Below, piece by piece: positions 1 through 34,031 of a DNA stretch of 64,000 nucleotides. This stretch comes from Giardia intestinalis. Taxonomy: Eukaryota. The stretch lies in the NCBI GenBank assembly GCA_000002435.2, contig CM018793.1; one strand, written 5' to 3'. Numbering within the stretch: the first letter of the stretch is position 1; each line of letters starts with the position of its first letter. A program made the position numbers and the translations under genes. The notes below the pieces were generated by a model. That model had not been told where the DNA came from. It was given only the letters and a program-made list of their open reading frames with translations, and made no database searches.

Positions 1-7
1 AATTCAC

Positions 8-607: not shown

Positions 608-702
608 CTGAACGGGACTTTTTCTCTATTTGCAATTTCAATTTAAAATGCTTCTCCGACGTTTATTATCCCTATACTCGTCAATATAGTGTAAATAAGA
701 AA

Positions 703-1191: not shown

Positions 1192-1201
1192 ATTGCACCG
1201 T

Positions 1202-1675: not shown

Positions 1676-1775
1676 CGCCCTTTTTCTTTCCCGTCCGCAG
1701 AAGCCGATTTGAAGTGGTTTGCAACACATATGTTGCTTGGCCGTTCTGCAACACATATGCTGCCGCGAATAAATA

Positions 1776-7090: not shown

Positions 7091-7104
7091 TATTTATTTT
7101 CCCC

Positions 7105-7159
7105 ACTCACACCAACCATTTGAAAGTGGAATCTGTTCTGAGAAAATAAAATGACGTAA
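7105..7159 (+). promoter_or_regulatory. Cassette-specific promoter module ahead of polB-A: 'ccaaccatttgaaagtggaatctgttctgagaaaataaaATGacgtaaATG'.
   Basis: The same module (aaaccatt..gaattc..ggaaaataaaATG) recurs at 11825-11867, 18318-18365, 20705-20746 and, in minus orientation, at 13680-13745 and 21099-21175. It contains a 2-codon uORF (ATG ACG TAA) abutting the polB ATG. Confidence 0.45.
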
Positions 7160-18621: not shown

Positions 18622-19272
18622 TTACTTCGAGATCTCCTCGAGGAAGCGAGCGAACGTGCCCGGCTCGGTCGAGGCGTTGAGGAAGCACTGGATGCCCTCT
18701 GCCCACTGCAGCGCCTGCTCGTCGGTGAGGCACGGACTTGTCGCCGTGTACGAGCGCTTGAACTTCGGGAGCCGCGACAGCCTCACTAACTCCTCCCCGG
18801 TCTCCTCTAAGAGGTAGAAGGCAGAGCGCACTCCATCTGATGCTCGCCTGCAGAAGGCGGTGTAGTGGGGCGCGCGCACGAACTCGTCCTCGGGCCTCTT
18901 GACGAAGCGGAAGATGACCCCGAGCTGGTTGAGCCACTGGCAGAACCAGGCCGTGACTCGCTCGTAGTCCTCCGTGCCCTCGGCGCAGTCGGCAGTAATG
19001 CGGCCCAGTAGTCTTCCCACCTGGCCACAGAAGCTCTTGAAGGGCGGGCCGGCGCGGGCGGATGTCTGCTGTGCGGGCTCGGGGTGCGAAGTCTGCTGAA
19101 CGGGGTCGGGGTCGGCGTGCGCTCGAGCCTTGAGGGGGCTTCGCTTGCGAGAGGATCCTCGAGGAGGGAGGGCGATGTCTTGCGTGAAGAGGTCCTCGGT
19201 GTAATGCTCAGGAATGATGCCATCTGCCATGCGTCCTTTTATTTTCTTGACGCTCCTATCATAAAGACGCAA
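18622..19272 (-). CDS. Hypothetical 216-aa Cys-containing protein, copy B.
   Basis: Start 'gaaaataaaaggacgcATG'. Shares the AGTAAATGTTTACT 3' palindrome with the small basic gene. Confidence 0.55.
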   Translation of the reverse strand: MRLYDRSVKKIKGRMADGIIPEHYTEDLFTQDIALPPRGSSRKRSPLKARAHADPDPVQQTSHPEPAQQTSARAGPPFKSFCGQVGRLLGRITADCAEGTEDYERVTAWFCQWLNQLGVIFRFVKRPEDEFVRAPHYTAFCRRASDGVRSAFYLLEETGEELVRLSRLPKFKRSYTATSPCLTDEQALQWAEGIQCFLNASTEPGTFARFLEEISK

Positions 19273-19343
19273 ACCATTTCAAATCCACTTCTACCAAACA
19301 ATATTAAATTCACTTCCTTCCGGCGTCTGCAGAAAAAAAAAAA

Positions 19344-19787
19344 ATGCTGGACCTCCGCAAGCTTAACAAGGAGGACTTCGAGCAGGCCATAGCCACCTTC
19401 ATCGAGCGTGCTCTTGACCTCGAACGGCCGGAAGATCTGAACAAAGACGAGCCGATTTATAACAGAAGCTATCTCCAGATCGACCCCGTCACGCACGGAG
19501 AGTATAACCTCACCCCGGCCGTTCTCTGGTCGCTGATAGTTATGACACTGACCTCCTATGGCCTTACAATGTTTACTGAGGACGACTGTCTTTGCGTGCA
19601 ATATGGCAAAATATACAAGTTTCCCATCGAGCCGGCAGACGAAGACGTTCTCAGAGAGATACACTATGCCATACACGTTGAAGCGACAGAAGACTTGGAA
19701 CTCTTCCCCCAGACCGAAGAGGAGATCGTGGCAGCGTTCAAACAGATACTTGGCGGACAGATAGAATTCCACATCCGACCCAAGTAA
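19344..19787 (+). CDS. Hypothetical acidic 147-aa protein. Occupies the slot that the ankyrin gene holds in unit A.
   Basis: Start 'cagaaaaaaaaaaaATG'. Stop in AGTAAAC. The antisense ORF 19239..19772 is judged spurious. Confidence 0.5.
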   Translation: MLDLRKLNKEDFEQAIATFIERALDLERPEDLNKDEPIYNRSYLQIDPVTHGEYNLTPAVLWSLIVMTLTSYGLTMFTEDDCLCVQYGKIYKFPIEPADEDVLREIHYAIHVEATEDLELFPQTEEEIVAAFKQILGGQIEFHIRPK

Positions 19788-19789
19788 AC

Positions 19790-20230
19790 CTGCGCTCCTC
19801 GGTCATGCGAATCAATTCCCGAATCAGAATCAAATCAAAATCAATTCGTCACAATTAATTGCACGAGGGGTCTCACAGGGCTCAGAAAAAAAAAATTACG
19901 CTGACCTGCCGGGCTGTCTGTATGTCGCACCTCGGTGTCGTGCGGGCCCGACAGGCTGGCTGGCTGGCCGGCAGCTGAACTGAGCCTCGAACGTACCACA
20001 CCCACAACGCGTCTCCTCCCGGCGTGCACAGTTCACGCTGGGCGGTTCCGGGGGGAGGCGCGTTTTTTTTAGAAAAATTACAGGTTTTTTATTCTATCAA
20101 AAATCATAATGTTTGGACGGGAGATTGCAGCAGGGAGAACAAAATCGCGGCGGTCGTTTTCGTTTTTTTGGGTAAGGCCCCCGGCCGGCCCAAAAAAACG
20201 AAAGCGGGCGCCTCGAGGATATATACTACT
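19790..20230. repeat. Conserved inter-unit spacer, copy B (includes hairpin 20155..20206 and the 'atatatactact' junction).
   Basis: Colinear with 13700..14157. Confidence 0.7.
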
Positions 20231-20339
20231 GGCGTGCTCCCTGTAGAGGTGATCGCGCTCTCTACGTTGATCGAGCACGATATTGTACAACTTCTTCACT
20301 TTGAGGTTGCGGCGCCTTATTTGGGTTCTAGCTCGTTCA

Positions 20340-20460
20340 AAGAGCTCCCCGTCGGTTCTAACAGGCCCCAGCTCGTCCACTTCCACAGCCTCAACTACGA
20401 CGGGGCTTTCATCCTTCGACATCAAGGAGGACTCCATCGTCACCGCACGAGGCACCCCGC
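20340..20460 (+). pseudogene. Third, highly degraded polB fragment (ExoII region 'NRPQLVHFHSLNYDGAFIL').
   Basis: Nucleotide similarity to 8866-8960 of polB-A with indels. Embedded in the non-genic ORF 20024..20743. Confidence 0.4.
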
Positions 20461-20864
20461 AGGTCCGGGAGGGCCCGAGCATCGGCCAATCCACGACAGC
20501 ACCAACGATGGCGAAGCAGACCCACAACCATCCCACACTCTGGGCCGGACTCCCGCCCCGCGGGCCCTACTCTGCCCCGCCGCCGCTGGCCCTGCGCCCT
20601 GGGTCGGAGCGGCGGCCCGCGCCCCCGCAAGCCTCTCGGCCGCCGGAGATGCCGCGGCGCCACGCGCTGGGCCGCCCCGGGACCCGGCGCCGTCTTCCAA
20701 AAAACCCAAACCATTGCAAATCGGAATCTCTCCCGGAAAATAAAATGACGCCGGCGCTGCCGGTATGTCGCACCGAGGTGTCGTGCGGGCGCCTGGAAGG
20801 CCTTTCCTCAAGCCCCTCTGCGGAGGGCAGGGCAAGAGCCTGCGCGGCCTGCCCTGGGCGCTGT

Positions 20865-21098
20865 TTACTTCGGCTGGCTCCCGTGGGAGAGCACAACCGA
20901 GACCTTGCGGCAAGCCCTCCCCTGGCCGAGCGTGAACCTGACAGTGAGCTGGTCCAGGCGCATCACAGCGCGGAACGCGGCTCGAACGGTGCGGGGGAGG
21001 GCTCGAACGGCTCGAGCGATGCAGAGGAGCCTCGAGAAGATCCCGGGCGGCCTCGGGGGGTGCTCCAGAGGCGGCGTCGGAATGGTGGCATCAGACAT
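20865..21098 (-). CDS. Candidate small gene (77 aa, Arg/Ala-rich).
   Basis: Minus-strand start 'ggaaataaaaagcagcgaccATG' with an upstream 'cgaattgattttgattc' module. Stop embedded in AGTAAAC. Overlaps a plus-strand ORF (20747..21182) that also carries the cassette promoter. Confidence 0.35.
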   Translation of the reverse strand: MSDATIPTPPLEHPPRPPGIFSRLLCIARAVRALPRTVRAAFRAVMRLDQLTVRFTLGQGRACRKVSVVLSHGSQPK

Positions 21099-24000
21099 GG
21101 TCGCTGCTTTTTATTTCCGGACACCAGGTCAACCCGAGGCCGAATCAAAATCAATTCGGAATCTGTCCGCCAAATAGTTTAGACGAGAAGTCAGACAGGC
21201 CCGAAAAGACGCGACCCGCCGCCGGTGTGCTTCGCCGCGGCGCCGCGCGAGTGGATGCACCAGTCGACCCGAGCGGCGAGAACCAGGCGGGGCAGACGGC
21301 TGGCGTGGGGTAGGAGGGCCCAGGCGCAGATGTGGGTGGCCGCCTCCCCCTAACGCTCTGCACTGTGGCTCCACCGCGCCCGAGGCAAGCAGATGGGCAG
21401 GTGGGCGCACCGACGCGCGGCGCCTGGGCCAAGACCAGGAGGTGAGGCACTAATCCTGCTAGAATAGCTATACGCCGAACCCAACGGAACGCTCGACTCC
21501 ACCTCCTTGGAAAGCACCCGACCACCCAAAAGTGGAAGAGGCCGCCGCTAAGATAGGCACTATGTTGCCCGCAGGCAGCGGCCTCAGCTACAGCACACAG
21601 AACCAAACACAACGCACGCCTTAGCCGCTGGCTCCCCCACCGGGCCATACCTGACGGCGCCCTGGCTAGCTTTGAGGTGCAAGGAAACAACTAGCTTCAC
21701 TCCTGTACACCCTCCCCAGACCAGCCGCCTATCAATCCGCTCGGCTCGCCACAGACGCTCAGTCTGTGTCGGCGCAGCCGTTGAGCTCCGCATTCACAAG
21801 AGTGGATACCAAGCACCACGCAGGCACTAAGGAGGATGGCTCCGTGCAACTGGACCTTGAGCGCAGGACGGCACAGCGTCATCCAGACGGGCTCATAGAG
21901 GTCGACGTCGTCCTGATGACCCGTTTTTGCGGGAGGAAGCCCGGCTACGTGAGATAGACATAGGCCATCCTCACACACGGACACAGTGCTTACCCTCTCA
22001 CCTTGTGGTGCTCCATGTGGCTTCCCATCTATTCATGAAGCCCGCCATGATAACACCTAGTGCACCAACGTCGGTCTTGTGCGCCCACCTGCGGCGCCCT
22101 CTATGGATCCGAGACGCTCTGGTCCCTCGCATTGTGTCGCTCAAACTGCTGGCTCCTCGAGTCTGTGTGCCCCCAGGGGCTCGGTCGAACCAAGAACAAC
22201 GAATCTCAGGCTTGCCCATGAGCTGGAACACGTCCAGGAGCCAGGCACCGTGCAAGCGGCTACCGCTCCCCAGGCGTCAGCTCCAGACTGTGGGGAGGTT
22301 CGCCCGGACACCCGCTGGCCCAGGGGTGGCGGCCCGCCAGGCTCCCAGCCCCCGGATCAATGTCCAAGGGCGGCCGCACAGCAGAAGACCGCCCCGGTGC
22401 CACGGCCGGCGACAGACAACTATTTACAGTGACGCTGCGGCTGCAGAGGCGGGGCCTCGGAGCGCCGGCCTGCCGACACGCTCCGCCGGCTCAGAGAGAG
22501 AGCCCTGGACCCGGCGCGGCTCCGCGAATAGGAGATGCAGCCGTCCTGCTTGGCGCTCTGCAGCAGGGCTATGTTCTCCTCGAAGGACATGGGCGGCGCA
22601 ACGGCCCCGGCCCTTATCACGACCGGCGGGGCATCCCTTAGCCTTGGGCCAACCGGGCGCCGCCCATGAGCCTCGCTGTCAGGTGATGTAGCGTCTTCAG
22701 GCCCCAACGACGCTCGTCACTGTCTCATCGTGCTTTGTGACTTAACTCGTGTGGCCCTTGGCTTGTCCTTGCCACAGAATGCACTCTTGAAGTCGGATGA
22801 GCGGAAACTGATGGTCGACTGTAGCTCGCTGCAACGTTTGTGTGTCGACCACCTACCCAGCCACGCTCAGAGATCAATGACCCGGCCAACTCTTCTTGGA
22901 CAACAAAAAGGCCACCGGCAGACTCGAAATCCTTGTGGACGACACAGGGAAGGGATCCTCGCTGGCATCGATCTTGTCGGGGTCGTGGAGGTAGGTAAGG
23001 ATGATGACGATCTGCTCCATGATGGAGAGCACTGTATCGGTAGGGTTACCGGTTCTTGCACAATCGGCAACCACATCTTGAGGCACCGATCCCAGCGGTC
23101 CATAACGATGACATGGAGTGGGCGTCTCTGAGCACCCGGTAGTGCCTAATGGCATCTAGGTGTCAGCGTCTGGAAATGGTGGCCAGCGCGACCCAGTGGC
23201 CTCCGTGAGCTTCCCACTCTGAGCCTTGGGTAGCTACCTATCACATGGACAGTACCAAAGCTGCCCACATCAAGCACCCCTCCTCGCATCGATGCAGCTC
23301 GTCAAGAGCGAACACGGAATATCGGGTGCGCCGTCCCCAGCCATGACGGTGTCAACGGCGCTGTGCAGAGCACGCTCGGGGGCAGGGGAGTGGCCACCCC
23401 TTTTCCCGGTTGCTGGCTGGCTGGCGAAGTATACGAGGCGCACCCGCTTGTCAGGCAGCTGTCTGAGATGAGGGCATTCCCGGCCCGGAGAGGCCCCTGC
23501 TTAGAACAGGTCACCAATTGTGTAGTAGAAGGAGCACGATCCTTGACATCCTTCCGTGCCAGACTGAAGGAACAAGCTCTGATGCGCTCCTTGCATTTTC
23601 TATTATCATAAACAGTGCTCGATAAGGTAGACGGTATCCCTAAGGAGACACACCGATGCGCTGTGCGAGTCGTCAACCACTTTCCGATCAATCTTATATG
23701 GGTGCGTCTCAGTATGGCCCATATGTTCGCAACATCACAACCGCCGCAGTTGCTATTTACAAAAAGTGGGCCATCAGTGAATGAAGCCAACAAACCCTGG
23801 ACTGTGAGGGAGACGCCTTTTCACGCCTGTCTCATGCCAGTACTTTGGGCCCTCGAATACTTATTGCCGCAAACCAAGCCAATCTATCGGCGTGTCAGGC
23901 GTATCGTTGCGACCATAAGGCTCAGTTTCTTTCATAATTAGCCCTGCTACCATCCACATCGCTGCGAGTGTCCCGCAATAGACTTGAGTAGGAAGCGCTT

Positions 24001-24297
24001 TAAACCCTTGACAAAAGCCCGCAGGCGGCACTAAACGCGCAGTTGATAAGCAAAATGGCCTTAGCCCCAGTAGTCTGTACAGCGCTGGTTGCGCCACGTA
24101 GCAGGCTTTCGGAGCACCCGTCTTCCCCTTCTTCCACAAGGGGTCCCGCTGTTGGTCATGGTGTTCTGAAATTGGACTGTTTTAGGCACATCCAGAATAC
24201 TCACACCCACCCTACTAGCGCACCTAATGCCTGTGCCGGATGAAATAGTGAGCGCGATCCATTTAACCTCAGTTTTCTGCGTTCAAAGTAAAAATTA

Positions 24298-25077
24298 ATG
24301 TGGAGCTGGGAGAGATCGCACTTTCACCACCATCATCACTACTGTCACCACCATAGTGTCCCTGAGTATGGGGTGCTTGGGGGTTTTGGCGGGCTCATCG
24401 GAGGACTCATAGGGGGCGCCATCGGGGCTAATCTGGGTCGCAAAAAAGAGAGAAAAGAGAAAGAAGTTATAGTCCAGCAGCAGCAGATCTCGCCCCCGCA
24501 GCAGAGTAAAGACAAGGAGGTTCACATCCACATTAACCAGTACACCCCGCCAAATAACGCTGCTCCCTCTCCAGCGGCAAACAATGCTAGCAAGCAAGCT
24601 GGGAGCAGTGCAGAGCCGTCTACACAACACATAGAGGCAGGGCTAGCGTCACTGGAGAAGCTTATGTATCTCGGCAACATAGAGGCGGCTAGGCTGCAAA
24701 TGCCGGCATTCAAGAAGTGGTACTTCTCCGAGCGCGAGAAGTTCACCGACCTCAATCTGCTGGGGGTGTACGACACGCGGCTACTGACTGTAGACATGTG
24801 GCTGGTTAACGATGCCGCAAGGGTTGTTAAGGCGCCACAAGGCCCCTTTACGGAGAACGATGCCAAGAAGGTTATGGAGCGCCTGGTAACCAAGGATGGC
24901 CAGCAACAGTTTGTGCAACTGTTCCAACCCGCCCCCATAATGGAGGGTGATAAGCACGAAGACAAAAGCTCAGAGGAACCACTCTTCCTGCGAAGCCTGA
25001 GGAACGCCAATCTCGCCCCCCGCAGCTCTGTTTCAGCCGACCCCATGCAGGCCTACCCGGGCCTAAGAATGAAGTGA
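24298..25077 (+). CDS. Hypothetical protein with His-rich N-terminus ('HFHHHHHYCHHH') and a Gly-rich 'GGFGGLIGGLIGGAIG' tract.
   Basis: Start 'gtaaaaattaATG'. 259 aa. Confidence 0.5.
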   Translation: MWSWERSHFHHHHHYCHHHSVPEYGVLGGFGGLIGGLIGGAIGANLGRKKERKEKEVIVQQQQISPPQQSKDKEVHIHINQYTPPNNAAPSPAANNASKQAGSSAEPSTQHIEAGLASLEKLMYLGNIEAARLQMPAFKKWYFSEREKFTDLNLLGVYDTRLLTVDMWLVNDAARVVKAPQGPFTENDAKKVMERLVTKDGQQQFVQLFQPAPIMEGDKHEDKSSEEPLFLRSLRNANLAPRSSVSADPMQAYPGLRMK

Positions 25078-25106
25078 CCCTGTACGCGATCGTGCAAGGA
25101 CTCTCT

Positions 25107-26000
25107 TTACTGTTCAACCAGGGCGGTGACCGTGTTTCCAAACAAGTTTTCTGGTTCTAGGGAGGCTACGTCCCGGCGCACTTTATAGTGCGGGTTGTCC
25201 CCCGCCTTTAGCCATGAAAAGTCGCGAACGGTGAAGCACTGGGTCTCGTCTAGCACTGGGTCCAAACCCGACTGCAGTAAACGCTTGTTGAACTCAGGAT
25301 CTAACTTGCCGAGGAGGGCCGTGTGTGCCTCAATGGTGGCACGTGTGAGCGGCGCAAACTGCAGATCAAGGCTGTGCTCAATGATAGGGGAACTTCCGAC
25401 AGCCACGACAAACGTCGAGGACGCTGTGTGGTGGATCCGCAGCTGATGGCAGGAAGCGATGACCACCAGCCCGCGACAGCGCTCCATGTGTAATGCTCCA
25501 GACACGCTGCTGCAAAAGATCATGCAGCCATCACAATCATCGACGTACAATGTAGATAATTGGGTTGGGAGGACTATTCGCGCGTTGACGCACTTGCGCA
25601 GAGTATAGTCCGTGCCTTCTTTGTCCGGCTCGAGTCGAAAGCTAGCGTCAACAATGTCGCAGGTAACGTTTTCATCGATGTACTGAATCACGGGAGCGCT
25701 CGGGGTTTCTACCGCGCTGTCCTTCTTGATATATTTCCTGCTAGAAAAGGCGAAAGCCTTGCGGGGGACCTTGAGCTGCCTCGCTGCAGCCAAATTGTAA
25801 GCCAGCTTAGTCAGCTGGATATTTGTGACGCGCCTGTCATAAGCGCTCAGAGAAGACGTTATTTGTGCCCGGCGCTCATATGCGCGTAGCTGGGCTGCCA
25901 GACCCCGGAGCACCGCCTCTGCCTCGTCCCTGTCTGTGATGGCTCTAAGCTCTCCCAAGGCAGCGTTAAACGCGTCCACCTCTGCGTTCGCTAGGGTCAT
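25107..26000 (-). CDS. Possible tubulin-folding-cofactor-C / CARP-domain-like protein (trimmed to 'MTLANAEV'; boundary +/-1 nt).
   Basis: Repetitive beta-helix-like pattern 'VTCDIVDASFRL...CVNARIVL...VDDCDGCMIFCSSVSG...CRGLVVIASCHQLRIHH'. Weak recognition. The ORF track started at a GTG. Confidence 0.4.
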   Translation of the reverse strand: MTLANAEVDAFNAALGELRAITDRDEAEAVLRGLAAQLRAYERRAQITSSLSAYDRRVTNIQLTKLAYNLAAARQLKVPRKAFAFSSRKYIKKDSAVETPSAPVIQYIDENVTCDIVDASFRLEPDKEGTDYTLRKCVNARIVLPTQLSTLYVDDCDGCMIFCSSVSGALHMERCRGLVVIASCHQLRIHHTASSTFVVAVGSSPIIEHSLDLQFAPLTRATIEAHTALLGKLDPEFNKRLLQSGLDPVLDETQCFTVRDFSWLKAGDNPHYKVRRDVASLEPENLFGNTVTALVEQ

Positions 26001-26070
26001 CGGGGTCGACGAGCGCAAGGAAAATAAAACGGGTAAAGGCACAATTCACTGAGCCTGACAAAAGCCTGTC

Positions 26071-26877
26071 TTAGAAGACAAACTTCTCCTCCTGGTCGTC
26101 CTCTGGACGAATGAAGGTCGAGATCTTCTTCATGTTGTTCTGGAGACCGTCGAGGACAGAGCCCATGGTCCTCACAATCTCGTCGTAGCTGGTCTTGCGG
26201 GTCGCAATCAGCTCAGCAACGACGCCGGCGAGAACCTTGCACTCTGCAGACAGCGAGACGACACCGTCGCGTGCGATGGACTCATAGTGCCTGCTCAGGA
26301 TCTCGGAGTCGCGGAGGTACTCGTCGATGCTCTGCTCACGGTCTGCACGCGCACGGTCATTCATGTCGGTGGCATGCTTGAGGTCGCGGTCCACCTTGCT
26401 GTAGATCTCTGTCGCCAGCGCCATCCTGGTATTGCGCTCGTTGGTGAGATTGCCAATAAAGGCGCCAAAGGACTCCTCGGCACTGGTCTTGAAGTAGCGG
26501 ATAGACTCCAGCAGATCGTCGTGCTCCTGGGCGATCTTCGCCATGGCGTGTCTGCACTTGTGGGCGAGGTCGGAGAAGTTGTCATTGTTCTCCTTCGTGT
26601 GGAGGCTCACAGAGGCCCCGAGCGCATCTCTTGTGTCCATTATGCGGGTGGTGAACTTCTTGCGGATGTCATCGAGGCGCTTGGTCGCTCGCTCGGTCTC
26701 CAACTGGAGGATCTTGTCAAGGTGCTCAATCCCGTTCTGGATGAGCTCGAACCTCTCGAGGTCAACCTGCTTGGTCTCGTCAACCTGCCTCTTGAAGTCC
26801 TCGTGAAAGTCGGTCACACGGCTGTTGATCTTTGCGAGGCGGTCCTTGAGAGAAAACGACGTGGAGACGGTGGTCAT
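26071..26877 (-). CDS. Striated-fibre assemblin family protein (beta-giardin / delta-giardin / SALP-like). Trimmed to 'MTTVSTSF'.
   Basis: 'NSRVTDFHEDFKRQVDETKQVDLERFELIQNGIEHLDKILQLETERATKR' parallels beta-giardin 'NQRVSRFHDKMENEIEVRRVDDDTRVKMIKDAIAHLDRLIQTESRKR'. Coiled coil of about 268 aa. Start 'gccagaaaaaaaATG'. AGTGAAT 25 nt past the stop. Confidence 0.75.
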   Translation of the reverse strand: MTTVSTSFSLKDRLAKINSRVTDFHEDFKRQVDETKQVDLERFELIQNGIEHLDKILQLETERATKRLDDIRKKFTTRIMDTRDALGASVSLHTKENNDNFSDLAHKCRHAMAKIAQEHDDLLESIRYFKTSAEESFGAFIGNLTNERNTRMALATEIYSKVDRDLKHATDMNDRARADREQSIDEYLRDSEILSRHYESIARDGVVSLSAECKVLAGVVAELIATRKTSYDEIVRTMGSVLDGLQNNMKKISTFIRPEDDQEEKFVF

Positions 26878-27214
26878 TTTTTTCTGGCGCAAAAGCGGAC
26901 TATTAATAATTATGAAACAGAGGGCAGAAGGCGCGCATTTGGCCCTGACCATGCACCTGCAGCGTGGCCGGTAGTGCTAGGCGTCTCCTTGCCGTCGAAG
27001 GGTCTGGCTTAGGAATCCGCATCGGCACTCTGCCCGCGGCCAGCCTTTCAGAGCACCAAAATTAGTTTAAGGAACAATCGTCAGCGGAAATCCGTCCATC
27101 GAACAAGGAAAGATCAAGGGTGCATAGCCACTAGCACTACGGTGCAGGATGTTGTGGTAAATTTCCGATTTCACGTGTCTGGACAGGCAGCAGCTTCTGG
27201 GCTCCATCTAAAAA

Positions 27215-30181
27215 ATGCTCCTCTCTCTTCCTGTCCAACCTCTCAGACTACGGCACCTCAAGAGTCACCAGTTGCTCGTGCAGGTCCAGAAGTACTGGGA
27301 GGCAAAGAAAAAGTCGCGTGCAGATGAAGAGTGCCGGTTCTGCGATGCAGCGCGAGACTCCGCTGAAATTTTAGAACAGGAGCATCTTGAGTCAGATACT
27401 GCACTCCGAGAGTATCAGCGGTATTGCGCCATGACAAGCTCTGTCCACTCTTTAACGACCTGGAACAACAATACCCTCTTGCAGCTTACAACCAAGAATC
27501 ACCCAAATGTGTGGCAGTTTTGTGCTACAGATAGCGCTTCCTATCAAAGCACATGTCTCTACAATGATATATTCAGCTCCTTTTACAGTTCTTTCGCCAT
27601 TTTATTCAATGCTTGCTGTGCACAGGCCTCTGCTGGCACTGGTCCCTTAAACGCCGTTCTTCCTCACAAGAGATTCCTGTTCAAAACTATTCTTGAGCTT
27701 TCTAGCATTATCCGTGACTCCTTTGCATGCTACCTCCCCGATGAGCTTTTGAGCACCGAACTCGCCCGCTGCCTCCACAGCGACGCATTTGATGCTCTGT
27801 TTTCTCTTGTTGACCTTTCGATGATAGAGCTACTACTTGCAATTGACATTGATAGGATTGAACAAGGCGGTCCTTCAGATATGCAAAGCTTTTTGTCCGT
27901 TACTTTTCTCTACACAGATATATCTACCTCTTTGCAACAGCAGCTCTTGAGCATCCACGACAAAGATCCTATCTTCCTTGCTATTCAGCAGGATCTTGCT
28001 GTTCGAACACCACTTTTTCTTGCATATACCTACTGTTCCTTTGCGAAAGCAATGATGACATCAGACAGTCTGCCGTTGGCAGGTACATATGCACAAAAAG
28101 CGTACAGCTTCCTGGAGCGGTTCCCCTCCAAGAACAGTGCACCCACCGCTACGATAGATCCAAATCTGGTATCGCCGCCAGAAGATATCAGATTGTTTGT
28201 CCAGCGCTTGCGGAGTGAGATTAACGAAATCGTAGAAAGGTGTGGCACAACAGAATTAGCGGACGTGCCATCTCCCCCGCCTCTGTCTATAGAGCGTGTT
28301 CGTGAGATGCTGCTGGCAGACGATGCAGACTATGAAGTACTCGAGCACTATCGACTTCTTCTAAGCTGGGATCACGAGAAGAAACGACTTGTATTCACAC
28401 CGCCTATGAAGGACTCCACTGGATCGTTCGACATGGAAGGTGATGACATTGATTTTGAGAGCATGCAAGGAGGCTCTCGGTCTATCCAAAAGGGGCTTGA
28501 CTTAGATAACGAGGACCTTCCAGACTTTAAATCAAACCCCTCCGAGCCCACTGATAAGCAGGAGTCTGCTGGTTTGGATGCAGAAGAGAAAGCTGTGGAG
28601 GACCCATCTTCGGATGCTCATCATTCGGACCGGGCTTCGTCCAAAAGCTCTCAACCATCTATGGTGTACATCGAACATACGCCGACCATGAATGGGCTCT
28701 CAGTGAAAGGAGAGCACTCTCTGGATGTGATGGAGACCCCGTCAATAGAGCTACCCACCCTTGCTATTGAAAAGCCAAGCAAAATACCAACTCCCACCTT
28801 TACGAGCAGTTATGTTGACCGCATGGCCACAGAGGATATTCCTTCGGATCCTACATACAAAACAAAGCTACCTGCACTGGAAGGCATGCCGCTCCCCAGG
28901 TCTATGCCTGCTGTTATCAAGCCAGAGTGCTGCGATAAGCGAGATAACCTCGATCCCTCGCTACCCCTTGATCTCTTGTCAGATAGCTCCAGTTCCTTAC
29001 CATTTAATTACGAATCCAAGCCAACGGAGAGTGATGTCCTAGATGTACCTCCTGCACCAGCTCAGCCTTCAGTAATGTCGACATTTGATCATGGAGATCT
29101 CCATACTCCAGAAGACCAGGAGAAGGTGAGCGCGAAAGAGAGCTCGCAGCATCCTGCTGAAGCGCTACAGTCACACGATTTGCAGGATACACACAAGCCT
29201 TCGGGCGACCCAGAGGAGGCCTCTCACGAGCTCTATCTTGGAGCGCCTTCAGATGTCGTGGCCATTGATCGGGATGCGGTCTTTCCAAACGACTCTCCTT
29301 CTGTTGAGAATTGTCCGCCATCGACAGACAAGCTCTCTGGAGACGATGACCTTGACAGTATGACCACTAAAGACTTGATATGCAGTAACGGTGTACATGA
29401 TTCGTTTGAGCACGATTCTATGGAAGAAAAGGAGCCAGAAGATGATGGCAACAGACCGACAGCTTTACTCGATGAGATTGCAATTGGCATGCAACAATCG
29501 ACGCAGAGCGGATGTTTCATGGATAACTCCTCCAGGATAACTGAACCGGTGCGAGAGACAGAGCTAGAACTAGACATGATCGTCAATGAAATGAATATCG
29601 CGCAGAGTGACGACTCTCTGAAGATAAGCTCACATACCAGCATTCATAGTAGTGGGAATGAGCCTGCAATTTCACGGGTGTCTCCCAGCTTGGTTAAGCC
29701 TGGCTCAGCGGTTACATTATCTGCGCCGCCTAACGTTAATTCATCAACAGTTGCAGTCGATGTCAATGCAGTGTTAGCAGAAAAGATAAACCCAGAGGAG
29801 GCCATGAATGTAGCCGCGCCGGTGTTTATGGCAAACATGCGCTCCACTTCATTAGGGCCCACGTCAACCTTGATAGAGAACGCGCTGTCGTACTGCGAAG
29901 AGGTTTCCCTTCACCACTCTGTCACTTCGAGCAACGTTAACAATATAGTTCTTTCCATTGGTTCTGGTGCCAGTTTCTCCACGTCTGCTGATTCTATTAA
30001 GAAGTTTCTGTCTGATTCTCAGACAAGCCTGGGGATGAATCAATCCGTCTCTCTTGGTCACAGTTACATTGACAAAGCACGCATACGCACAAGACTTCGT
30101 CTTCTACAATCGCGTGCCGAGCGAGCAATTCTCATTGCCCTGCTAATTACCTTTGTAATAGCAATAGTATGCACACTATAA
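27215..30181 (+). CDS. Hypothetical 988-aa Ser/Asp-rich protein with a C-terminal tail anchor.
   Basis: Start 'atctaaaaaATG'. C-terminus 'AILIALLITFVIAIVCTL' is hydrophobic. Confidence 0.6.
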   Translation: MLLSLPVQPLRLRHLKSHQLLVQVQKYWEAKKKSRADEECRFCDAARDSAEILEQEHLESDTALREYQRYCAMTSSVHSLTTWNNNTLLQLTTKNHPNVWQFCATDSASYQSTCLYNDIFSSFYSSFAILFNACCAQASAGTGPLNAVLPHKRFLFKTILELSSIIRDSFACYLPDELLSTELARCLHSDAFDALFSLVDLSMIELLLAIDIDRIEQGGPSDMQSFLSVTFLYTDISTSLQQQLLSIHDKDPIFLAIQQDLAVRTPLFLAYTYCSFAKAMMTSDSLPLAGTYAQKAYSFLERFPSKNSAPTATIDPNLVSPPEDIRLFVQRLRSEINEIVERCGTTELADVPSPPPLSIERVREMLLADDADYEVLEHYRLLLSWDHEKKRLVFTPPMKDSTGSFDMEGDDIDFESMQGGSRSIQKGLDLDNEDLPDFKSNPSEPTDKQESAGLDAEEKAVEDPSSDAHHSDRASSKSSQPSMVYIEHTPTMNGLSVKGEHSLDVMETPSIELPTLAIEKPSKIPTPTFTSSYVDRMATEDIPSDPTYKTKLPALEGMPLPRSMPAVIKPECCDKRDNLDPSLPLDLLSDSSSSLPFNYESKPTESDVLDVPPAPAQPSVMSTFDHGDLHTPEDQEKVSAKESSQHPAEALQSHDLQDTHKPSGDPEEASHELYLGAPSDVVAIDRDAVFPNDSPSVENCPPSTDKLSGDDDLDSMTTKDLICSNGVHDSFEHDSMEEKEPEDDGNRPTALLDEIAIGMQQSTQSGCFMDNSSRITEPVRETELELDMIVNEMNIAQSDDSLKISSHTSIHSSGNEPAISRVSPSLVKPGSAVTLSAPPNVNSSTVAVDVNAVLAEKINPEEAMNVAAPVFMANMRSTSLGPTSTLIENALSYCEEVSLHHSVTSSNVNNIVLSIGSGASFSTSADSIKKFLSDSQTSLGMNQSVSLGHSYIDKARIRTRLRLLQSRAERAILIALLITFVIAIVCTL

Positions 30182-30223
30182 TCGTGATTGTAAATCGCCC
30201 CGTTCACACTAAAAGCTGGCTCC

Positions 30224-32332
30224 CTACTCGCCAGAAAAGGTGAAGGCCCCCACTTGCACATGGCCTCGACCTTCGGGAACGTAATGGAGAATGGGAATCC
30301 CATTCTCAAGCCTGTCAAAGTAGTAGAAGCCCCACCTTTCCAGCTGCAGAGTCTCCTTCGGCTTGACGTATTGTAGTATATTCCCCTGGACGTATGCATC
30401 GAACGTCTTGAAGGAACTCTTGTTAACGAAGTCTCTGAAGTCGTCATCAGGCCCAAGAATGTCCTTGGTTATTAGGTGACCGAAGTAGCACGTCCGCACA
30501 CGCTTCACTGTCCTTGACTTCCCGACCCACGTGATCTTCAAGGTGCCTGAGTAGTCTGTATCCTCAGGAACATGCCTTAGGGCCAGTGTCTGGGCGCCGT
30601 AGTCAACGGCCTCGATCTGCATGTTACCCCACGTCATAAGAGTGAGTTTATCGCCGACCTTCAAGCCCTGGTCCTCCATCTGCTTAAAGTCCGAAGAGTC
30701 GATGAGAACCTCGGGACGATAGAGGACCTGCTTTGTGCCCAAGTCTGCATTCTTTGCATGCAGTGGGACATCCCGCAGCGCGTAGAACGCATGCTTCGGC
30801 GTGAAGTTCACGATTCGGGCAGTGACAGCGTCATCTGAGTGGACGGCGTGGAACCTCTTAGCAATGGGCTCTATGAATTGCTTATTCACGGCCCAGATCT
30901 TCGACCACTCCTGATAGTTGTTGCGGCGCGACGGGCCCTGATCCAATATGAACTTCCGCAAGGCATCGGGGCGCAGTCCTCTGCGCATGAGACCCTGGAC
31001 GGTGGGAAAACGCGGATCGAACCAGCCTTCCACGAGTCCTTCCTCCACAAACCACTGCAGATGACGCTTGCTCATGATACTGTATTGCATACGAAGACGC
31101 GAGAAATCGTATAGCTCAGGCTTGCGTAGGCCTAGCTTATCGCAGAACCACCAGTACTGGTTGTTTCTATCTAGAAACTCCGTGGTGCGAAGGGCGTGCG
31201 TGATTCCTTCCACAGAGTCGACAATCGGACACGCAAAGTCATAGGTTGGATAGACCTTGTATTTTGTCCCGGTCCTGTGGTGCTCGTCCTTGACGTTCAC
31301 CCTGTAGATCACTGGGTCGCGCATGCACTTGTTAGGATCGTCGATGGATATCTTTGCCCGCAAGCACGTCAACTGGCCTTCCTCGCTGCCCTTTTTCATC
31401 TCCTCCCACAGACGGAGAGACTCTCCAACAGCTGTATCACGAAAGTCGGATGCAACTCCATCAAATCGCCTCTTCTGCATCTCTTCTGACGGGGTTTTGT
31501 CGCAGTACGCCAGCCCGTCGAGAATGAGCTTCTCCGCCAACTGGAGCATCAAGTCAAAGTGGTCAGAAGTATAGGAAAAGGAATCGAAGTCGAGCTGCAG
31601 AGACTTCATATCACGCTTCAAATTTTCGACAAACTCCGGGTTTTCGCGCCCGGGATTAGTGTCGTCCATGCGAAAGTGCAGGCGACCCTTATATGCGCGA
31701 GCAAAGTAATGATTGAGCATGGCCGCCTTTGCGTGACCAATGTGCAGGTACCCGGACGGCTCGGGCGGGAAGCGAGTGCAGACCTTTCCGAGCTCCGCGT
31801 TGTTAAGCACAGGCCCGTCTTTCGGCAGAAGAGACCGGGTGTAGTTCTTCACAGCCATGCTTGTCTGCCCGCGGGCAACCTTAAGGGCAACATCTGAAGC
31901 GTATGCCTCAAGCAGAGAAGCTGTCCTAGGGTGTCCGGCGAGGACATCAGCGTGAGGAGCGCCGACGATGATATAGTCAAGCTCCTTGTGTCCTGTTGAG
32001 ACAGGCGTATCCTGCGCTATTGCAGAGACTATCGTCTCTAGCATATCGGGCTGCGCTGGCTGGTCGATTAAATAGAGAAGAGGAAGAACGGCGGTAGAAA
32101 TAAGCATCTCGACCTCAACAGGCATAGACGGCCAAAGGATCCTAAAAAGCTCCAGATAGCCCGTCGTGAGGACGCCGTCGGGCGCCTTGTACGTTGGTTC
32201 GGTCAAATCGGCCTCAGCAACGTAGTTTGCGTGGACGCCCCCCACGTAGGCCAGGAGAGCTAGTGACACGGGGGCCCGATCGGCGCGAAACGTGATGGTT
32301 GCGGCTGGTGTCTTGTCCTTCTTCGCGCACAT
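30224..32332 (-). CDS. QARS: Glutaminyl-tRNA synthetase (class I) with a eukaryote-type N-terminal extension.
   Basis: 'TRFPPEPSGYLHIGHAKAAMLNHYFA' versus the E. coli GlnRS 'TRFPPEPNGYLHIGHAKS' HIGH region. 'MSKR' KMSKS-like motif. Start 'gtaaataaaaATG'. Confidence 0.9.
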   Translation of the reverse strand: MCAKKDKTPAATITFRADRAPVSLALLAYVGGVHANYVAEADLTEPTYKAPDGVLTTGYLELFRILWPSMPVEVEMLISTAVLPLLYLIDQPAQPDMLETIVSAIAQDTPVSTGHKELDYIIVGAPHADVLAGHPRTASLLEAYASDVALKVARGQTSMAVKNYTRSLLPKDGPVLNNAELGKVCTRFPPEPSGYLHIGHAKAAMLNHYFARAYKGRLHFRMDDTNPGRENPEFVENLKRDMKSLQLDFDSFSYTSDHFDLMLQLAEKLILDGLAYCDKTPSEEMQKRRFDGVASDFRDTAVGESLRLWEEMKKGSEEGQLTCLRAKISIDDPNKCMRDPVIYRVNVKDEHHRTGTKYKVYPTYDFACPIVDSVEGITHALRTTEFLDRNNQYWWFCDKLGLRKPELYDFSRLRMQYSIMSKRHLQWFVEEGLVEGWFDPRFPTVQGLMRRGLRPDALRKFILDQGPSRRNNYQEWSKIWAVNKQFIEPIAKRFHAVHSDDAVTARIVNFTPKHAFYALRDVPLHAKNADLGTKQVLYRPEVLIDSSDFKQMEDQGLKVGDKLTLMTWGNMQIEAVDYGAQTLALRHVPEDTDYSGTLKITWVGKSRTVKRVRTCYFGHLITKDILGPDDDFRDFVNKSSFKTFDAYVQGNILQYVKPKETLQLERWGFYYFDRLENGIPILHYVPEGRGHVQVGAFTFSGE

Positions 32333-32365
32333 TTTTATTTACTAGGGAACAGCAGTGCGGGTGCA

Positions 32366-33898: not shown

Positions 33899-34031
33899 GA
33901 TATTTTTTTATTGTTGGTTCCATCGGGATCTACAGTTCTTGACATGGAACTTTTGCACCATGCACAAAGCGTGCCAGTGTGTTAGGACCCGAAAAATAAA
34001 TTCCATCTGCGTTGAAAATTCAGAACCCCTT

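What the first reader, a model, noticed from the sequence alone, without database searches (positions are those of the whole stretch)
21183..24297. 3.1-kb GC-rich block with no credible ORF in an otherwise more than 85% coding window
Only short, mutually overlapping Arg/Pro/Gly-rich ORFs are present. The contrast with neighbouring gene-dense DNA suggests a long ncRNA locus, a thoroughly degenerated mobile element or former cassette cargo, or a pseudogene graveyard. One minus-frame fragment ('NPTDTVLSIMEQIVIILTYLHDPDKIDASEDP', 22874-23155) looks protein-like but is isolated.
Basis: seen in the sequence. Interest (0 to 1): 0.5.

Follow-up and report, generated by a model that had tools for sequence, protein, structure and literature searches.

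The report
Duplicated gene-tail junk made GC-rich
The gene-free block in this Giardia chromosome is non-coding patchwork: mostly an upside-down spare copy of the tail and downstream spacer of a nearby gene, plus old intergenic DNA. The copied part became GC-rich only after it was duplicated, probably because repeated copy-correction between the two copies favours G and C.

Summary
The window is Giardia intestinalis WB (assemblage A). No credible gene lies between about 19.8 kb and 24,297, while the 40 kb to the right is 96% coding.

The block is a composite.
- 20,600-22,419 is an inverted second copy of the non-coding spacer downstream of GL50803_5183, a gene lying upstream of the window.
- 22,420-22,635 (minus strand) is the last 71 codons of that gene.
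- 22,636 to about 23,113 is filler specific to assemblage A, of unknown origin.
- About 23,114-24,297 is ancestral intergenic DNA upstream of GL50803_4447.

Independent assemblies cross the 22,635 junction, so it is real. Assemblage E has a single-copy spacer with 54% GC.

WB/E differences carry no codon periodicity, and every WB ORF in the spacer is broken by stops in E. Pfam, Rfam and protein searches found nothing credible.

The high GC is derived. G/C-versus-A/T differences between WB and E run 197:196 in the unique part of 5183 and 291:102 past the duplication boundary (34:1 in the copied coding part). Seven amino-acid replacements derived in assemblage A are all AT-to-GC. GC-biased gene conversion between the two copies is the best explanation.

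This is ordinary junk in kind, with a tidy evolutionary signature.

The parts
19828..20234 (.). Third copy of the terminal segment of the ~6.5 kb tandem unit (pPolB, deoxynucleoside kinase, hypothetical gene). It includes a 28-nt inverted repeat at 20145-20172 / 20189-20216.
   Evidence: It matches 13711-14164 at 83-98% (families D10, D11, D16, D19 and inverted repeats I2, I3). The same unit end is present in assemblage E (P15) contigs.
20235..20599 (.). Scrambled remnant of a third unit. It holds a short pPolB fragment at 20360-20444 (+) and a weak trace resembling a RING-finger protein on the minus strand.
   Evidence: blastn places 20360-20444 against 8867-8959 at 80%. tblastn matches pPolB residues 570-600 with E = 1.6e-7. 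A RING-protein profile hits 20237-20566 (-) with E = 1.8e-5.
20600..22419 (-). Inverted duplicate of the non-coding spacer that lies downstream of GL50803_5183. GC is 64.7%. It is non-coding in both lineages.
   Evidence: 20721-22635 is 100% identical to ten short-read contigs that continue into the full-length 5183 gene. The spacer is orthologous to the P15 5183-to-pPolB-2 spacer, L030 12961-15040, at 71-76% identity. Mismatches show no codon periodicity, and the WB ORFs are broken by stops in P15.
22420..22635 (-). Truncated pseudogene fragment: the last 71 codons plus the stop codon of GL50803_5183 (DUF4485 protein, 985 aa). GC is 69.4% and third-codon-position GC is 83%.
   Evidence: Its translation is identical to the C-terminus of P0077 (KAE8305684.1), and that C-terminus is conserved in all orthologues. 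The junction at 22635|22636 is crossed by the DH (assemblage AII) contig L020 and the ENA contig L018.
22636..23113 (.). Filler of unknown origin, specific to assemblage A. It contains most of the deprecated ORF GL50803_115278 (22874-23155, minus strand).
   Evidence: It is present in AI and AII and has no counterpart in P15. The 93-aa ORF is listed twice in the old WB proteome. Its only match is its own AII copy; two other hits are repeat proteins and are spurious. The ORF is frameshifted in AII.
23114..23438 (.). Highly diverged ancestral intergenic DNA. Part of it is repeated elsewhere in the genome.
   Evidence: 23114-23221 aligns locally with the DNA upstream of the variant-specific surface protein (VSP) gene in P15 (L019 8704-8814). 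The score is 51, against 21.4 +/- 2.3 for shuffles, and the alignment is collinear with the synteny boundary. Short-read contigs of many isolates end at 23340, 23392 or 23432. AI-AII divergence is 7.4% across 22874-23434.
23439..24297 (+). Ancestral intergenic region upstream of GL50803_4447 (24298-25077). GC is 51%.
   Evidence: Continuous synteny with P15 starts at 23439. Identity here is 67-69% with many indels, against 84-92% in neighbouring coding sequences. AI-AII identity is 97.4%, against 99.0-99.4% in coding sequences. Mismatches show no periodicity.

Best explanation
The block is non-functional, non-coding DNA at a rearrangement-prone junction in the Giardia intestinalis WB chromosome. 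The junction lies between a decayed, tandemly duplicated virus-like element carrying a pPolB gene (window about 1-20.6 kb) and the host gene GL50803_4447.

Its GC-rich two-thirds (about 20.6-22.64 kb) is an inverted segmental duplicate. The duplicate covers the last 71 codons of the host gene GL50803_5183 and the roughly 1.8 kb non-coding spacer downstream of it. The parent copy lies upstream of the window, 18 protein accessions before its first gene in the 2020 annotation.

**Shown.**
- The duplication exists and its junction is real.
- It is absent from assemblage E.
- The DNA is non-coding.
- A sharp excess of AT-to-GC changes in lineage A starts exactly at the duplication boundary.

**Inferred.**
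- After the duplication arose, in the common ancestor of sub-assemblages AI and AII, the two arms kept exchanging sequence by gene conversion.
- That conversion was GC-biased. It raised GC from about 54% to 65-69% and fixed seven AT-to-GC amino-acid replacements in the conserved C-terminus of the real 5183 gene.

The remaining third is filler of unknown origin plus the fast-evolving ancestral intergenic region upstream of GL50803_4447.
For: **Identity of the organism and the parent gene.**
- Exact protein matches to Giardia WB accessions on a 4.02-Mb chromosome.
- Accession order along the chromosome is KAE8305683 (Rad3 helicase), 684 (5183), then 702-706 (window genes), 711 (4447) and 715 (glutaminyl-tRNA synthetase).

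**The duplication.**
- Window 20721-22635 is 100% identical to contigs L008-L017, which run on into the full-length 5183 gene.
- In 59 of 78 samples the spacer ORF sits on a contig shorter than 2 kb, as expected for a two-copy repeat of about 1.9 kb.
- The C-terminal 71 residues are native to 5183 and conserved in four orthologues down to 68% overall identity.

**The junction is real.** DH (AII) contig L020 and ENA contig L018 cross 22635.

**The duplication is specific to lineage A.** P15 has the spacer only at the 5183 locus. No similarity was found between P15 loci L030 and L019.

**Inverted orientation.** In P15, 5183 and 4447 lie on the same strand about 51 kb apart. The WB accession order agrees with this.

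**Non-coding.**
- Six-frame Pfam search found nothing, and Rfam found nothing.
- Mismatch periodicity gives p = 0.4-0.9 in the spacer, against p = 9e-5 in the adjacent coding control. WB ORFs carry stops in P15.
- Spacer identity is about 78%, close to the 74% seen at third codon positions of eight genes.

**The GC shift.** S means G or C; W means A or T.
- Sites where WB has S and P15 has W, versus the reverse, number 197:196 in the unique part of the 5183 coding sequence.
- In the duplicated part the counts are 291:102 (Fisher p = 6e-12).
- In the duplicated coding part they are 34:1 (p = 4.5e-9).
- The step falls within one 50-nt bin of the boundary.
- Third-position GC of the last 72 codons is 83% in WB and 53% in P15. 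In the rest of the gene it is 55% in both.
- Seven replacements derived in lineage A, polarised with P15 and three further orthologues, all require W-to-S changes.

**Concerted evolution.** The two DH copies are identical to each other, yet share six differences from WB.
Against: - The second WB copy was not read directly from the reference chromosome. It is inferred from short-read contigs and from the annotated 985-aa protein.
- Within-genome identity of the two arms could partly be an assembly artefact. Possible sources are bubble popping in short-read graphs, shared reads at the DH contig ends, and short-read polishing of the long-read reference.
- No outgroup DNA was available. Polarisation of the nucleotide changes rests on composition and on seven amino-acid sites.
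- A single replacement of the 5183-locus arm by an already GC-rich copy would give the same step, although it would still require gene conversion.
- The left limit of the duplicated arm is not defined. The short-read contigs stop at variable points between 20721 and 21063.
- 19 of 78 samples assemble straight from 5183 through position 22635 without a break, which is unexpected if both junctions exist at equal coverage.
- The origin of 22636-23113 is unexplained. That segment shows a weak hint of coding-like divergence: mismatches by codon phase are 3, 2 and 10 (p = 0.02, uncorrected).
Confidence: 0.7

Rival explanations
1. The block, or the ancestral spacer it copies, is the thoroughly decayed remains of genes of the virus-like element carrying pPolB. 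Candidates are its morphogenetic or integration module. On this view it is a mobile-element graveyard, not host spacer.
For: - In both A and E lineages the spacer lies between 5183 and a pPolB gene.
- A gene-dense relative (L031, 19.9 kb) carries pPolB, deoxynucleoside kinase, a Pox_A32-type packaging ATPase (26.9 bits) and a weak rve integrase match. It also carries homologues of GL50803_3666 and 16686, so intact versions of the element have many more genes.
- The P15 spacer holds weak traces resembling a RING protein (E about 1e-5) and the 198-aa hypothetical protein (E = 0.003). Window 20237-20566 holds a RING-like trace.
Against: - No protein of L031, of the window's element or of the P15 element matches 20,600-23,438 at E < 0.05.
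- Pfam on all six frames found nothing.
- WB/P15 differences show no residual periodicity.
- The significant traces all lie outside the finding's coordinates.
- This rival is compatible with the duplication-and-conversion account. It concerns only the deeper origin of the spacer.
Confidence: 0.3
2. The block encodes a long non-coding RNA or another functional non-coding element. One candidate is a regulatory region for GL50803_4447 or for the 5183 3' end. On this view the block is retained for that function.
For: - 21,500-22,200 aligns to P15 with few indels (about 11 gap columns in 700 nt) at 73-82% identity. That is slightly above the 74% seen at third codon positions.
- Both copies are kept identical within a genome.
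Against: - No Rfam match even at E <= 1.
- Identity is close to the neutral (synonymous-site) level, with no conserved islands above 88%.
- The strong compositional drift from 54% to 65% GC argues against sequence constraint.
- 23,439-24,297 evolves faster than coding DNA, at 67-69% identity with many indels.
- Transcription could not be tested.
Confidence: 0.08
3. The block contains one or more real but unannotated protein-coding genes, for example the 93-aa ORF at 22874-23155 (-) or the 179-aa ORF at 21151-21690 (-).
For: - The 93-aa ORF was annotated in 2007 as GL50803_115278.
- AI-AII differences in its last 70 codons are 9 synonymous and 6 nonsynonymous, with 10 of 15 at third positions (p = 0.02, uncorrected).
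- Gene callers called the 179-aa and 95-aa ORFs on many short-read contigs.
Against: - The 93-aa ORF loses its ATG-initiated N-terminus to a 1-bp indel in AII.
- It has no homologue among 5.8 billion clustered proteins or 1.84 billion representatives, apart from its own AII copy and two spurious repeat-protein hits.
- The 179-aa, 95-aa, 254-aa and other spacer ORFs all carry stops in P15, and their differences show no periodicity.
- The 2020 re-annotation removed many such small ORFs as over-annotation. Its accession numbering leaves no room for a gene here.
Confidence: 0.05
4. The block is an assembly artefact: a chimeric join or collapsed repeat in the reference.
For: - It lies next to tandem repeats and duplicated DNA, where assemblies often fail.
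- 19 of 78 short-read assemblies run from 5183 through 22635 without branching.
Against: - Two independent assemblies of a different sub-assemblage cross the 22635 junction collinearly with the window. They are the DH contig AHGT01000020 and an ENA metagenome contig, at 98.1-98.3% identity over 10-13 kb.
- The right-hand boundary at 23439 coincides with the start of synteny in P15.
Confidence: 0.03

Closest known systems
Inverted segmental duplications and palindrome arms kept identical by gene conversion, with GC-biased conversion (for example the arms of primate sex-chromosome palindromes; from my own knowledge, not checked in the paper library)
   Same: - Two inverted copies lie on one chromosome.
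- The copies are identical within a genome while differing between lineages.
- GC is raised, with an AT-to-GC substitution bias confined to the repeated arms and a sharp boundary at the arm edge.
   Different: - The arms here are short, about 2 kb.
- By analogy with P15 they are tens of kb apart.
- They contain no intact gene other than the tail of 5183.
- The organism is a tetraploid, binucleate protist in which meiosis has not been observed.
- Arm identity is not yet proven with long reads.
Duplicated regions of the G. intestinalis WB genome and the gene-poor neighbourhoods of variant-specific surface protein (VSP) genes (Xu et al. 2020, PMC7000408)
   Same: - That paper reports that 6.9% of the genome arose by duplication.
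- It reports duplicated pairs in head-to-head or tail-to-tail orientation.
- It reports gene-poor regions around VSP genes with raised sequence variation, and over-annotation of small ORFs in the 2007 genome.
- In assemblage E a VSP gene occupies the position corresponding to this block.
   Different: - No VSP gene or VSP remnant is detectable in the WB block.
- The duplicated piece is a gene tail plus spacer, not a member of a gene family.
- The paper does not describe this locus or any GC shift.
Polinton/Maverick-type elements and Polinton-like viruses
   Same: - The DNA to the left of the block carries pPolB (PF03175, E = 5e-37).
- The Giardia intestinalis pPolB already appears in published Polinton/Polinton-like virus polymerase trees (PMC4642659).
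- A related contig adds an A32-type ATPase and a weak integrase match.
   Different: - The block itself has no detectable remnant of any Polinton gene.
- The window has no terminal inverted repeats, no recognisable capsid, protease or integrase gene, and a tandem rather than a unit-copy arrangement.
Giardia non-LTR retrotransposons GilM, GilT and the 'dead' GilD
   Same: These are degenerate, ORF-poor repeated DNA in Giardia chromosomes.
   Different: No reverse-transcriptase or endonuclease similarity in any of the six frames at E <= 1. The repeated part is demonstrably copied from a host gene and its spacer.

Membership tests
Segmental duplicate / truncated gene-fragment pseudogene | A second, near-identical copy exists elsewhere in the same genome, contiguous with the intact parent gene | tested here: met
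   Window 20721-22635 is 100% identical to contigs that continue into full-length GL50803_5183. The 985-aa protein is annotated on the same 4.02-Mb WB chromosome.
Segmental duplicate / truncated gene-fragment pseudogene | The copy is truncated and cannot encode the parent protein | tested here: met
   Only the last 71 of 985 codons are present, and homology stops at 22635.
Segmental duplicate / truncated gene-fragment pseudogene | The junction is real and not an assembly chimera | tested here: met
   It is crossed by the DH contig L020 and the ENA contig L018.
Segmental duplicate / truncated gene-fragment pseudogene | Orientation relative to the parent copy (inverted) | tested here: inconclusive
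   Inferred only. In P15 the two genes lie on the same strand. In WB the protein accession order is Rad3, then 5183, then the window genes. The WB chromosome sequence outside the window could not be read.
Tract of GC-biased gene conversion | An excess of AT-to-GC over GC-to-AT changes confined to the converting segment, with a boundary at its edge | tested here: met
   The counts are 197:196 outside the segment and 291:102 inside it. The step falls within 50 nt of the duplication boundary.
Tract of GC-biased gene conversion | The bias affects synonymous, nonsynonymous and non-coding sites alike | tested here: met
   The duplicated coding part gives 34:1, including seven nonsynonymous W-to-S replacements. 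The spacer gives 294:105.
Tract of GC-biased gene conversion | The direction of change is polarised with an outgroup | tested here: inconclusive
   Polarisation was possible only at the protein level, for seven sites, using P15 and three more distant orthologues. Composition gives a second argument. No outgroup DNA could be obtained.
Tract of GC-biased gene conversion | Direct evidence that the copies convert one another (concerted evolution) | tested here: inconclusive
   Both DH copies share six differences from WB, and the WB-type copies are identical. Assembly collapse or polishing could mimic this.
Tract of GC-biased gene conversion | Within populations, AT-to-GC alleles segregate at higher frequency than GC-to-AT alleles | not testable with these tools
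   This needs read-level population data.
Polinton/Maverick element (as the identity of the block) | pPolB together with an rve integrase | tested here: not met
   The block contains only a 28-residue pPolB fragment, at 20360-20444 and outside the finding. No integrase is present anywhere in the window.
Polinton/Maverick element (as the identity of the block) | Double jelly-roll major capsid protein, penton protein, A32-type ATPase and cysteine protease | tested here: not met
   No Pfam match in the six frames of 20700-24300. No tblastn match to any protein of the relative L031. Structure-based capsid detection was not possible.
Polinton/Maverick element (as the identity of the block) | Terminal inverted repeats | tested here: not met
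   No long inverted repeats in 1-30000.
Non-LTR retrotransposon remnant | Reverse-transcriptase or endonuclease-like coding remnant | tested here: not met
   Six-frame Pfam search at E <= 1 found no RVT or endonuclease family.
Structured or long non-coding RNA locus | A match to a known RNA family, or conservation above the neutral level | tested here: not met
   Rfam found nothing at gathering thresholds or at E <= 1. Spacer identity is about 78%, against 74% at third codon positions, with strong compositional drift.
Structured or long non-coding RNA locus | A discrete transcript | not testable with these tools
   No expression data were available.
Protein-coding gene | An ORF conserved in a sister lineage, with differences concentrated at third codon positions | tested here: not met
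   Spacer ORFs carry stops in P15 and show no periodicity. The 93-aa ORF is frameshifted in AII and has no homologue. There is only a weak, uncorrected hint of periodicity.

The most novel reading that the evidence does not exclude
The two inverted arms of about 2 kb (the 5183 tail plus spacer) are a natural reporter of ongoing ectopic, GC-biased gene conversion in Giardia, an organism whose capacity for recombination is still debated. The process has been strong enough to raise GC by 10-17 points. It has also driven seven AT-to-GC amino-acid replacements into the most conserved part of a host protein. If the effect is general, it would explain why repeated DNA in Giardia is GC-rich, including the rDNA and the pPolB element.
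Probability: 0.45. Interest if true: 0.55.

Novelty: new member of a known kind. Interest (0 to 1): 0.35.

Why it matters
For genome annotation the block is ordinary. It is a gene-free patch of duplicated and intergenic DNA, and nothing needs to be added to the gene list.

Its value is as a clean natural experiment. The same sequence is single-copy with 54% GC in assemblage E, and two-copy with 65-69% GC in assemblage A. The switch in substitution bias falls exactly at the duplication breakpoint, inside a conserved coding region.

That points to GC-biased gene conversion between dispersed repeats in Giardia. It bears on how this tetraploid, apparently asexual parasite homogenises its genome, and on why its repeated DNA is GC-rich. 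It is also easy to extend into a genome-wide test: compare all lineage-specific duplicates with their single-copy orthologues.

Tried and rejected
- **Plasmid or integron origin.** megablast of 20500-25000 against PLSDB found no match. The window is eukaryotic.
- **Known RNA families.** Rfam on the whole window at gathering thresholds, and on 20000-24600 at E <= 1, found nothing.
- **Hidden protein domains.** Pfam on all six frames of 20700-24300, with stops masked, found nothing. The best match was a hepadnavirus surface antigen at E = 0.1, which is chance.
- **Degenerate third copy of the tandem unit.** Nucleotide similarity to units A and B ends near 20,790. tblastn with all unit proteins, P15 element proteins and L031 proteins finds only the pPolB fragment at 20360-20444. 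Family profiles add only a RING-like trace left of the finding.
- **The 'protein-like' 93-aa ORF.** The word-indexed search of 5.8 billion proteins found only its own AII copy. The full HMMER scan of 1.84 billion representatives added two repeat proteins, each matched in six stretches: a bacterial PKD-repeat protein and a 539-aa repeat protein. I judge both spurious.
- **Second copy of 22636-23438.** It is not in the window or in any fetched locus. An exact 49-mer scan of JGI metagenomes found nothing.
- **Outgroup DNA for 5183.** A metagenome scan with the 5183 alignment found no relative.
- **VSP remnant in WB.** tblastn of the P15 VSP against the block gave only E = 3.2.
- **PHROGs on element proteins.** Only coiled-coil noise.
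- **PDB sequence search with pPolB.** No match.
- **IMG/VR scan with the pPolB alignment.** One distant hit at 31% over 106 residues, not followed up.
Full report
**Source of the window**

The window is Giardia intestinalis WB (assemblage A, sub-assemblage AI).
- Ten window proteins were looked up by exact sequence. Several match WB accessions on a 4,018,654-bp chromosome: glutaminyl/glutamyl-tRNA synthetase XP_001707446, delta-giardin XP_001707449, hypothetical GL50803_004447 (24298-25077), and a 'putative DNA polymerase' (7160-10756).
- Pfam confirms a eukaryotic, intron-less, gene-dense setting. Hits include TBCC, SF-assemblin and a class I tRNA synthetase.

**Checking the observation**

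- To the right of the block, 24,298-63,938 is 96% covered by long ORFs, and no gap exceeds 506 bp.
- Inside 21,183-24,297 only short overlapping ORFs occur. The longest ATG ORF is 218 aa. Random sequence with the same first-order composition gives 153 +/- 45 aa (p = 0.09).
- GC is 64.7% in 20,600-22,419, 69.4% in 22,420-22,635 and 58.4% in 22,636-23,438. It is 51.2% in 23,439-24,297, equal to the 51.7% of the rest of the window.
- The left limit of 21,183 is only the stop codon of a spurious 299-aa TTG ORF. The gene-free stretch begins near 19.8-20.2 kb.

**Surroundings on the left**

Window 7.1-20.2 kb is a tandem array of a GC-rich unit of about 6.5 kb.
- Unit A (7.1-14.16 kb) carries a protein-primed family-B DNA polymerase (pPolB, 1198 aa, PF03175, E = 5e-37). 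It also carries a deoxynucleoside kinase, a 198-aa hypothetical protein and an ankyrin protein.
- Unit B (14.16-20.15 kb) repeats these at 72-100% identity, with a 5'-truncated pPolB.
- A third unit is represented only by its terminal segment (19,828-20,234) and a 28-residue pPolB fragment (20,360-20,444).

The Giardia pPolB is already in the literature as a member of the Polinton/Polinton-like virus polymerase tree (PMC4642659).

A related 19.9-kb metagenome contig (L031) is gene-dense. It carries:
- pPolB at 55% identity, and a deoxynucleoside kinase;
- a Pox_A32-type ATPase (26.9 bits, cut-off 22.8);
- a weak rve integrase match (18.9 bits, below the cut-off);
- homologues of GL50803_3666 and GL50803_16686.

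The left third of the window therefore looks like a decayed Polinton-like element.

**Anatomy of the block**

*(a) 20,721-22,635: a second copy of the 5183 tail and spacer.*
- This segment is 100% identical to ten short-read contigs from different sequencing runs. Beyond position 22,635 those contigs continue into a full-length 985-aa DUF4485 gene, followed by a Rad3 helicase, SelR and other genes, none of which is in the window.
- That gene is GL50803_005183 (KAE8305684.1), on the same chromosome. It lies 18 protein accessions before the first window gene.
- Window 22,635 down to 22,420 on the minus strand is the last 71 codons plus the stop of 5183. Window 22,419 down to at least 20,721 is its downstream spacer.
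- The 71-residue tail is the most conserved part of the protein in four orthologues down to 68% overall identity. It is therefore native to 5183 and was copied from it.
- In 59 of 78 samples the spacer ORF lies on a contig shorter than 2 kb, as expected for a two-copy repeat of about 1.9 kb.

*(b) The junction at 22,635|22,636 is real.* The DH (sub-assemblage AII) contig AHGT01000020 is collinear with the window from 22,157 to 35,078 at 98.3%. An ENA metagenome contig is collinear from 22,495 to 33,058 at 98.1%.

*(c) Assemblage E (isolate P15).*
- The 5183 orthologue is followed by a 4.46-kb gene-free spacer and then a second pPolB paralogue.
- The first 2.1 kb of that spacer is orthologous to window 22,419 down to 20,600 at 71-76% identity.
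- P15 has no second copy. Its 4447 locus and its 5183 locus share no similarity.
- In P15, 5183 and 4447 lie on the same strand about 51 kb apart. The WB accession order agrees. The window copy is therefore inverted relative to its parent; this is inferred, not read directly.

*(d) Synteny with P15 on the right starts at 23,439.* To the left of that point P15 has instead a 766-aa VSP gene, about 3 kb of gene-free DNA and the right end of a pPolB unit.

*(e) 23,114-23,221 still aligns locally with the DNA upstream of the P15 VSP gene.* The score is 51, against 21.4 +/- 2.3 for shuffles, and the alignment is collinear with the synteny boundary. Ancestral intergenic DNA therefore reaches back to about 23,114.

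*(f) 22,636-23,113 has no counterpart outside assemblage A.*
That ORF was GL50803_115278 in the 2007 annotation and is listed twice in the old WB proteome.
- Short-read contigs carrying 4447 stop at 23,340, 23,392 or 23,432 in many isolates, which also points to a second copy elsewhere.

**Is any of it coding or a known RNA?**

No.
- Six-frame Pfam search found nothing. Rfam found nothing at gathering thresholds or at E <= 1.
- Between WB and P15, mismatches in the copied 5183 tail are strongly periodic: 8, 23 and 5 by codon phase (p = 9e-5). In five spacer segments they are flat (p = 0.4-0.9).
- Every WB spacer ORF (254, 179, 117, 95, 93, 85, 69 and 63 aa) is interrupted by stops in P15.
- Spacer identity is about 78%. 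Third codon positions of eight genes are 74% identical. The spacer is therefore evolving close to neutrally.
- 23,439-24,297 is 67-69% identical to P15 with many indels, against 84-92% in neighbouring coding sequences.
- The 93-aa ORF:
  - matches only its own AII copy among 5.8 billion proteins;
  - in a full HMMER scan of 1.84 billion representatives it adds only two multi-repeat proteins, each hit in six stretches, which I regard as spurious;
  - loses its N-terminal part to a 1-bp indel in AII;
  - leaves one weak residual hint: in its last 70 codons the AI-AII differences fall 3, 2 and 10 by phase (p = 0.02, uncorrected), with 9 synonymous and 6 nonsynonymous.

**Why it is GC-rich**

S means G or C; W means A or T.
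- The P15 orthologue of the duplicated segment has 54% GC, the same as the body of 5183 in both lineages.
- Along the 5183 coding sequence upstream of the breakpoint, sites where WB has S and P15 has W number 197. The reverse class numbers 196.
- From the breakpoint onward the counts are 291:102 (Fisher p = 6e-12). Within the duplicated coding part they are 34:1 (p = 4.5e-9).
- In 50-nt bins the switch occurs in the bin that starts at the breakpoint.
- Third-position GC of the last 72 codons is 83% in WB and 53% in P15. In the rest of the gene it is 55% in both.
- Control genes nearby give ratios of 1.0-1.4.
- Seven amino-acid replacements in the conserved tail are derived in lineage A, judged against P15 and three further orthologues. 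They are K922R, V/I925A, I938L, M967V, V969A, S970G and Y982R. All need W-to-S changes and all are shared by WB and DH.
- Of the six clean AI-AII differences in 22,241-22,483, both DH copies carry the same state at every site. The WB-type 5183-locus contigs are identical to the window copy.

This points to concerted evolution of the two arms. A substitution bias that starts at a duplication breakpoint, acts on synonymous, nonsynonymous and non-coding sites alike, and accompanies concerted evolution is the known signature of GC-biased gene conversion. I adopt that as the mechanism, as an inference.

Caveats:
- There is no outgroup DNA.
- Assembly effects may contribute to the apparent identity of the arms.
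- A single large conversion from an already GC-rich copy would give the same picture.

In the paper library, GC-biased conversion in Giardia appears only as a suggested explanation for the GC-rich rDNA.

**Comparison with what is known**

- Xu et al. 2020 report that 6.9% of the WB genome is duplicated, that gene-poor and variable regions surround VSP genes, and that small ORFs were over-annotated in 2007. The block fits all three points, and a VSP gene sits at the corresponding site in P15.
- The block is not a Polinton. It has no integrase, capsid or ATPase remnants and no terminal inverted repeats.
- It is not a retrotransposon remnant.
- It is not a recognisable non-coding RNA.

**Verdict**

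The finding is real, but it is ordinary junk in kind: an inverted segmental duplicate of a gene tail plus spacer, filler of unknown origin, and ancestral intergenic DNA, at the decayed edge of a virus-like element. The interesting residue is the sharp, derived GC shift, which is a locus-level signature of GC-biased gene conversion in Giardia. Interest is 0.35. Novelty: a new member of a known kind.

Noticed in passing
window 7100-20234: Tandem array of a GC-rich unit of about 6.5 kb (pPolB, deoxynucleoside kinase, 198-aa hypothetical protein, ankyrin or other gene). Unit A is intact. In unit B the pPolB is 5'-truncated and frameshifted, with the junction 14160 matching 7677. Unit C survives only as its end segment. 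Assemblage E (P15) has a single unit ending exactly at the point equivalent to 14160.
   Followed up: partly
window 1309-1708, 7300-10500, 12109-12508, 13709-14160 versus P15 contig L028: Parts of the element are 95-99% identical between assemblages A and E: pPolB, the 198-aa gene, the unit end, and a segment at 1309-1708. The interleaved genes (GL50803_3666, 16686, deoxynucleoside kinase) are 64-87% identical, and host third codon positions are 74% identical. This suggests recent exchange or re-acquisition of element DNA between assemblages.
   Followed up: no
locus L031 (ENA ERZ27287779 k141_64424, 19.9 kb): Gene-dense relative of the element. It carries pPolB (55% identity), deoxynucleoside kinase, a Pox_A32-type packaging ATPase, a weak rve integrase match and homologues of GL50803_3666 and 16686. 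It also carries several large proteins with no annotation that could be capsid proteins. It looks like an intact Polinton-like element or virus of a Giardia relative.
   Followed up: partly
window 14074-14147 and 20145-20216: A 28-31-nt inverted repeat sits at the end of each tandem unit, with arms resembling GGGACGCTTTCGTTTTTTTGGGCC / GGCCCAAAAAAACGAAAG. It is conserved in P15 (L028 12624-12697). Function is unknown; it could be a terminator, an origin or a recombination site.
   Followed up: no
window 24298-25077: GL50803_4447, the gene bordering the block, is one of only three WB genes longer than 200 aa that Franzen et al. 2009 reported as absent from the assemblage B (GS) genome (PMC2723961). 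It is present in assemblage E. The whole junction is therefore lineage-variable.
   Followed up: partly
locus L019 3150-9076 (P15) and L030 12961-17419 (P15): Assemblage E also has gene-free blocks at both loci. One is about 3 kb plus a 766-aa VSP gene upstream of its 4447 orthologue. The other is a 4.46-kb spacer between 5183 and a second pPolB paralogue. That spacer carries weak pseudogene traces resembling a RING protein (E about 1e-5) and the 198-aa protein (E = 0.003).
   Followed up: partly
window 22874-23434: AI-versus-AII divergence is 7.4% here, against 2.1-2.6% in the flanking non-coding DNA and about 1% in genes. AII also has a 28-bp and a 1-bp insertion. The right edge coincides with the points where short-read contigs break, and with the P15 synteny boundary.
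   Followed up: partly
window 13011-13586: The ankyrin gene (12840-13679, minus strand) contains an internal tandem repeat with a period of 93/186 nt, about three copies at 64-76% identity.
   Followed up: no
window 1-2130: A separate GC-rich island (59-65% GC) holds a RING-finger ORF (8-607, minus strand). It also holds an ORF (744-1547, minus strand) whose DNA at 891-1139 matches, at 79% identity, the start of P15 locus L019 (bases 8-249). That stretch lies inside a SLFN_AlbA_2 gene which in P15 directly abuts a deoxynucleoside kinase fragment. Gene order around the element therefore differs between assemblages.
   Followed up: no
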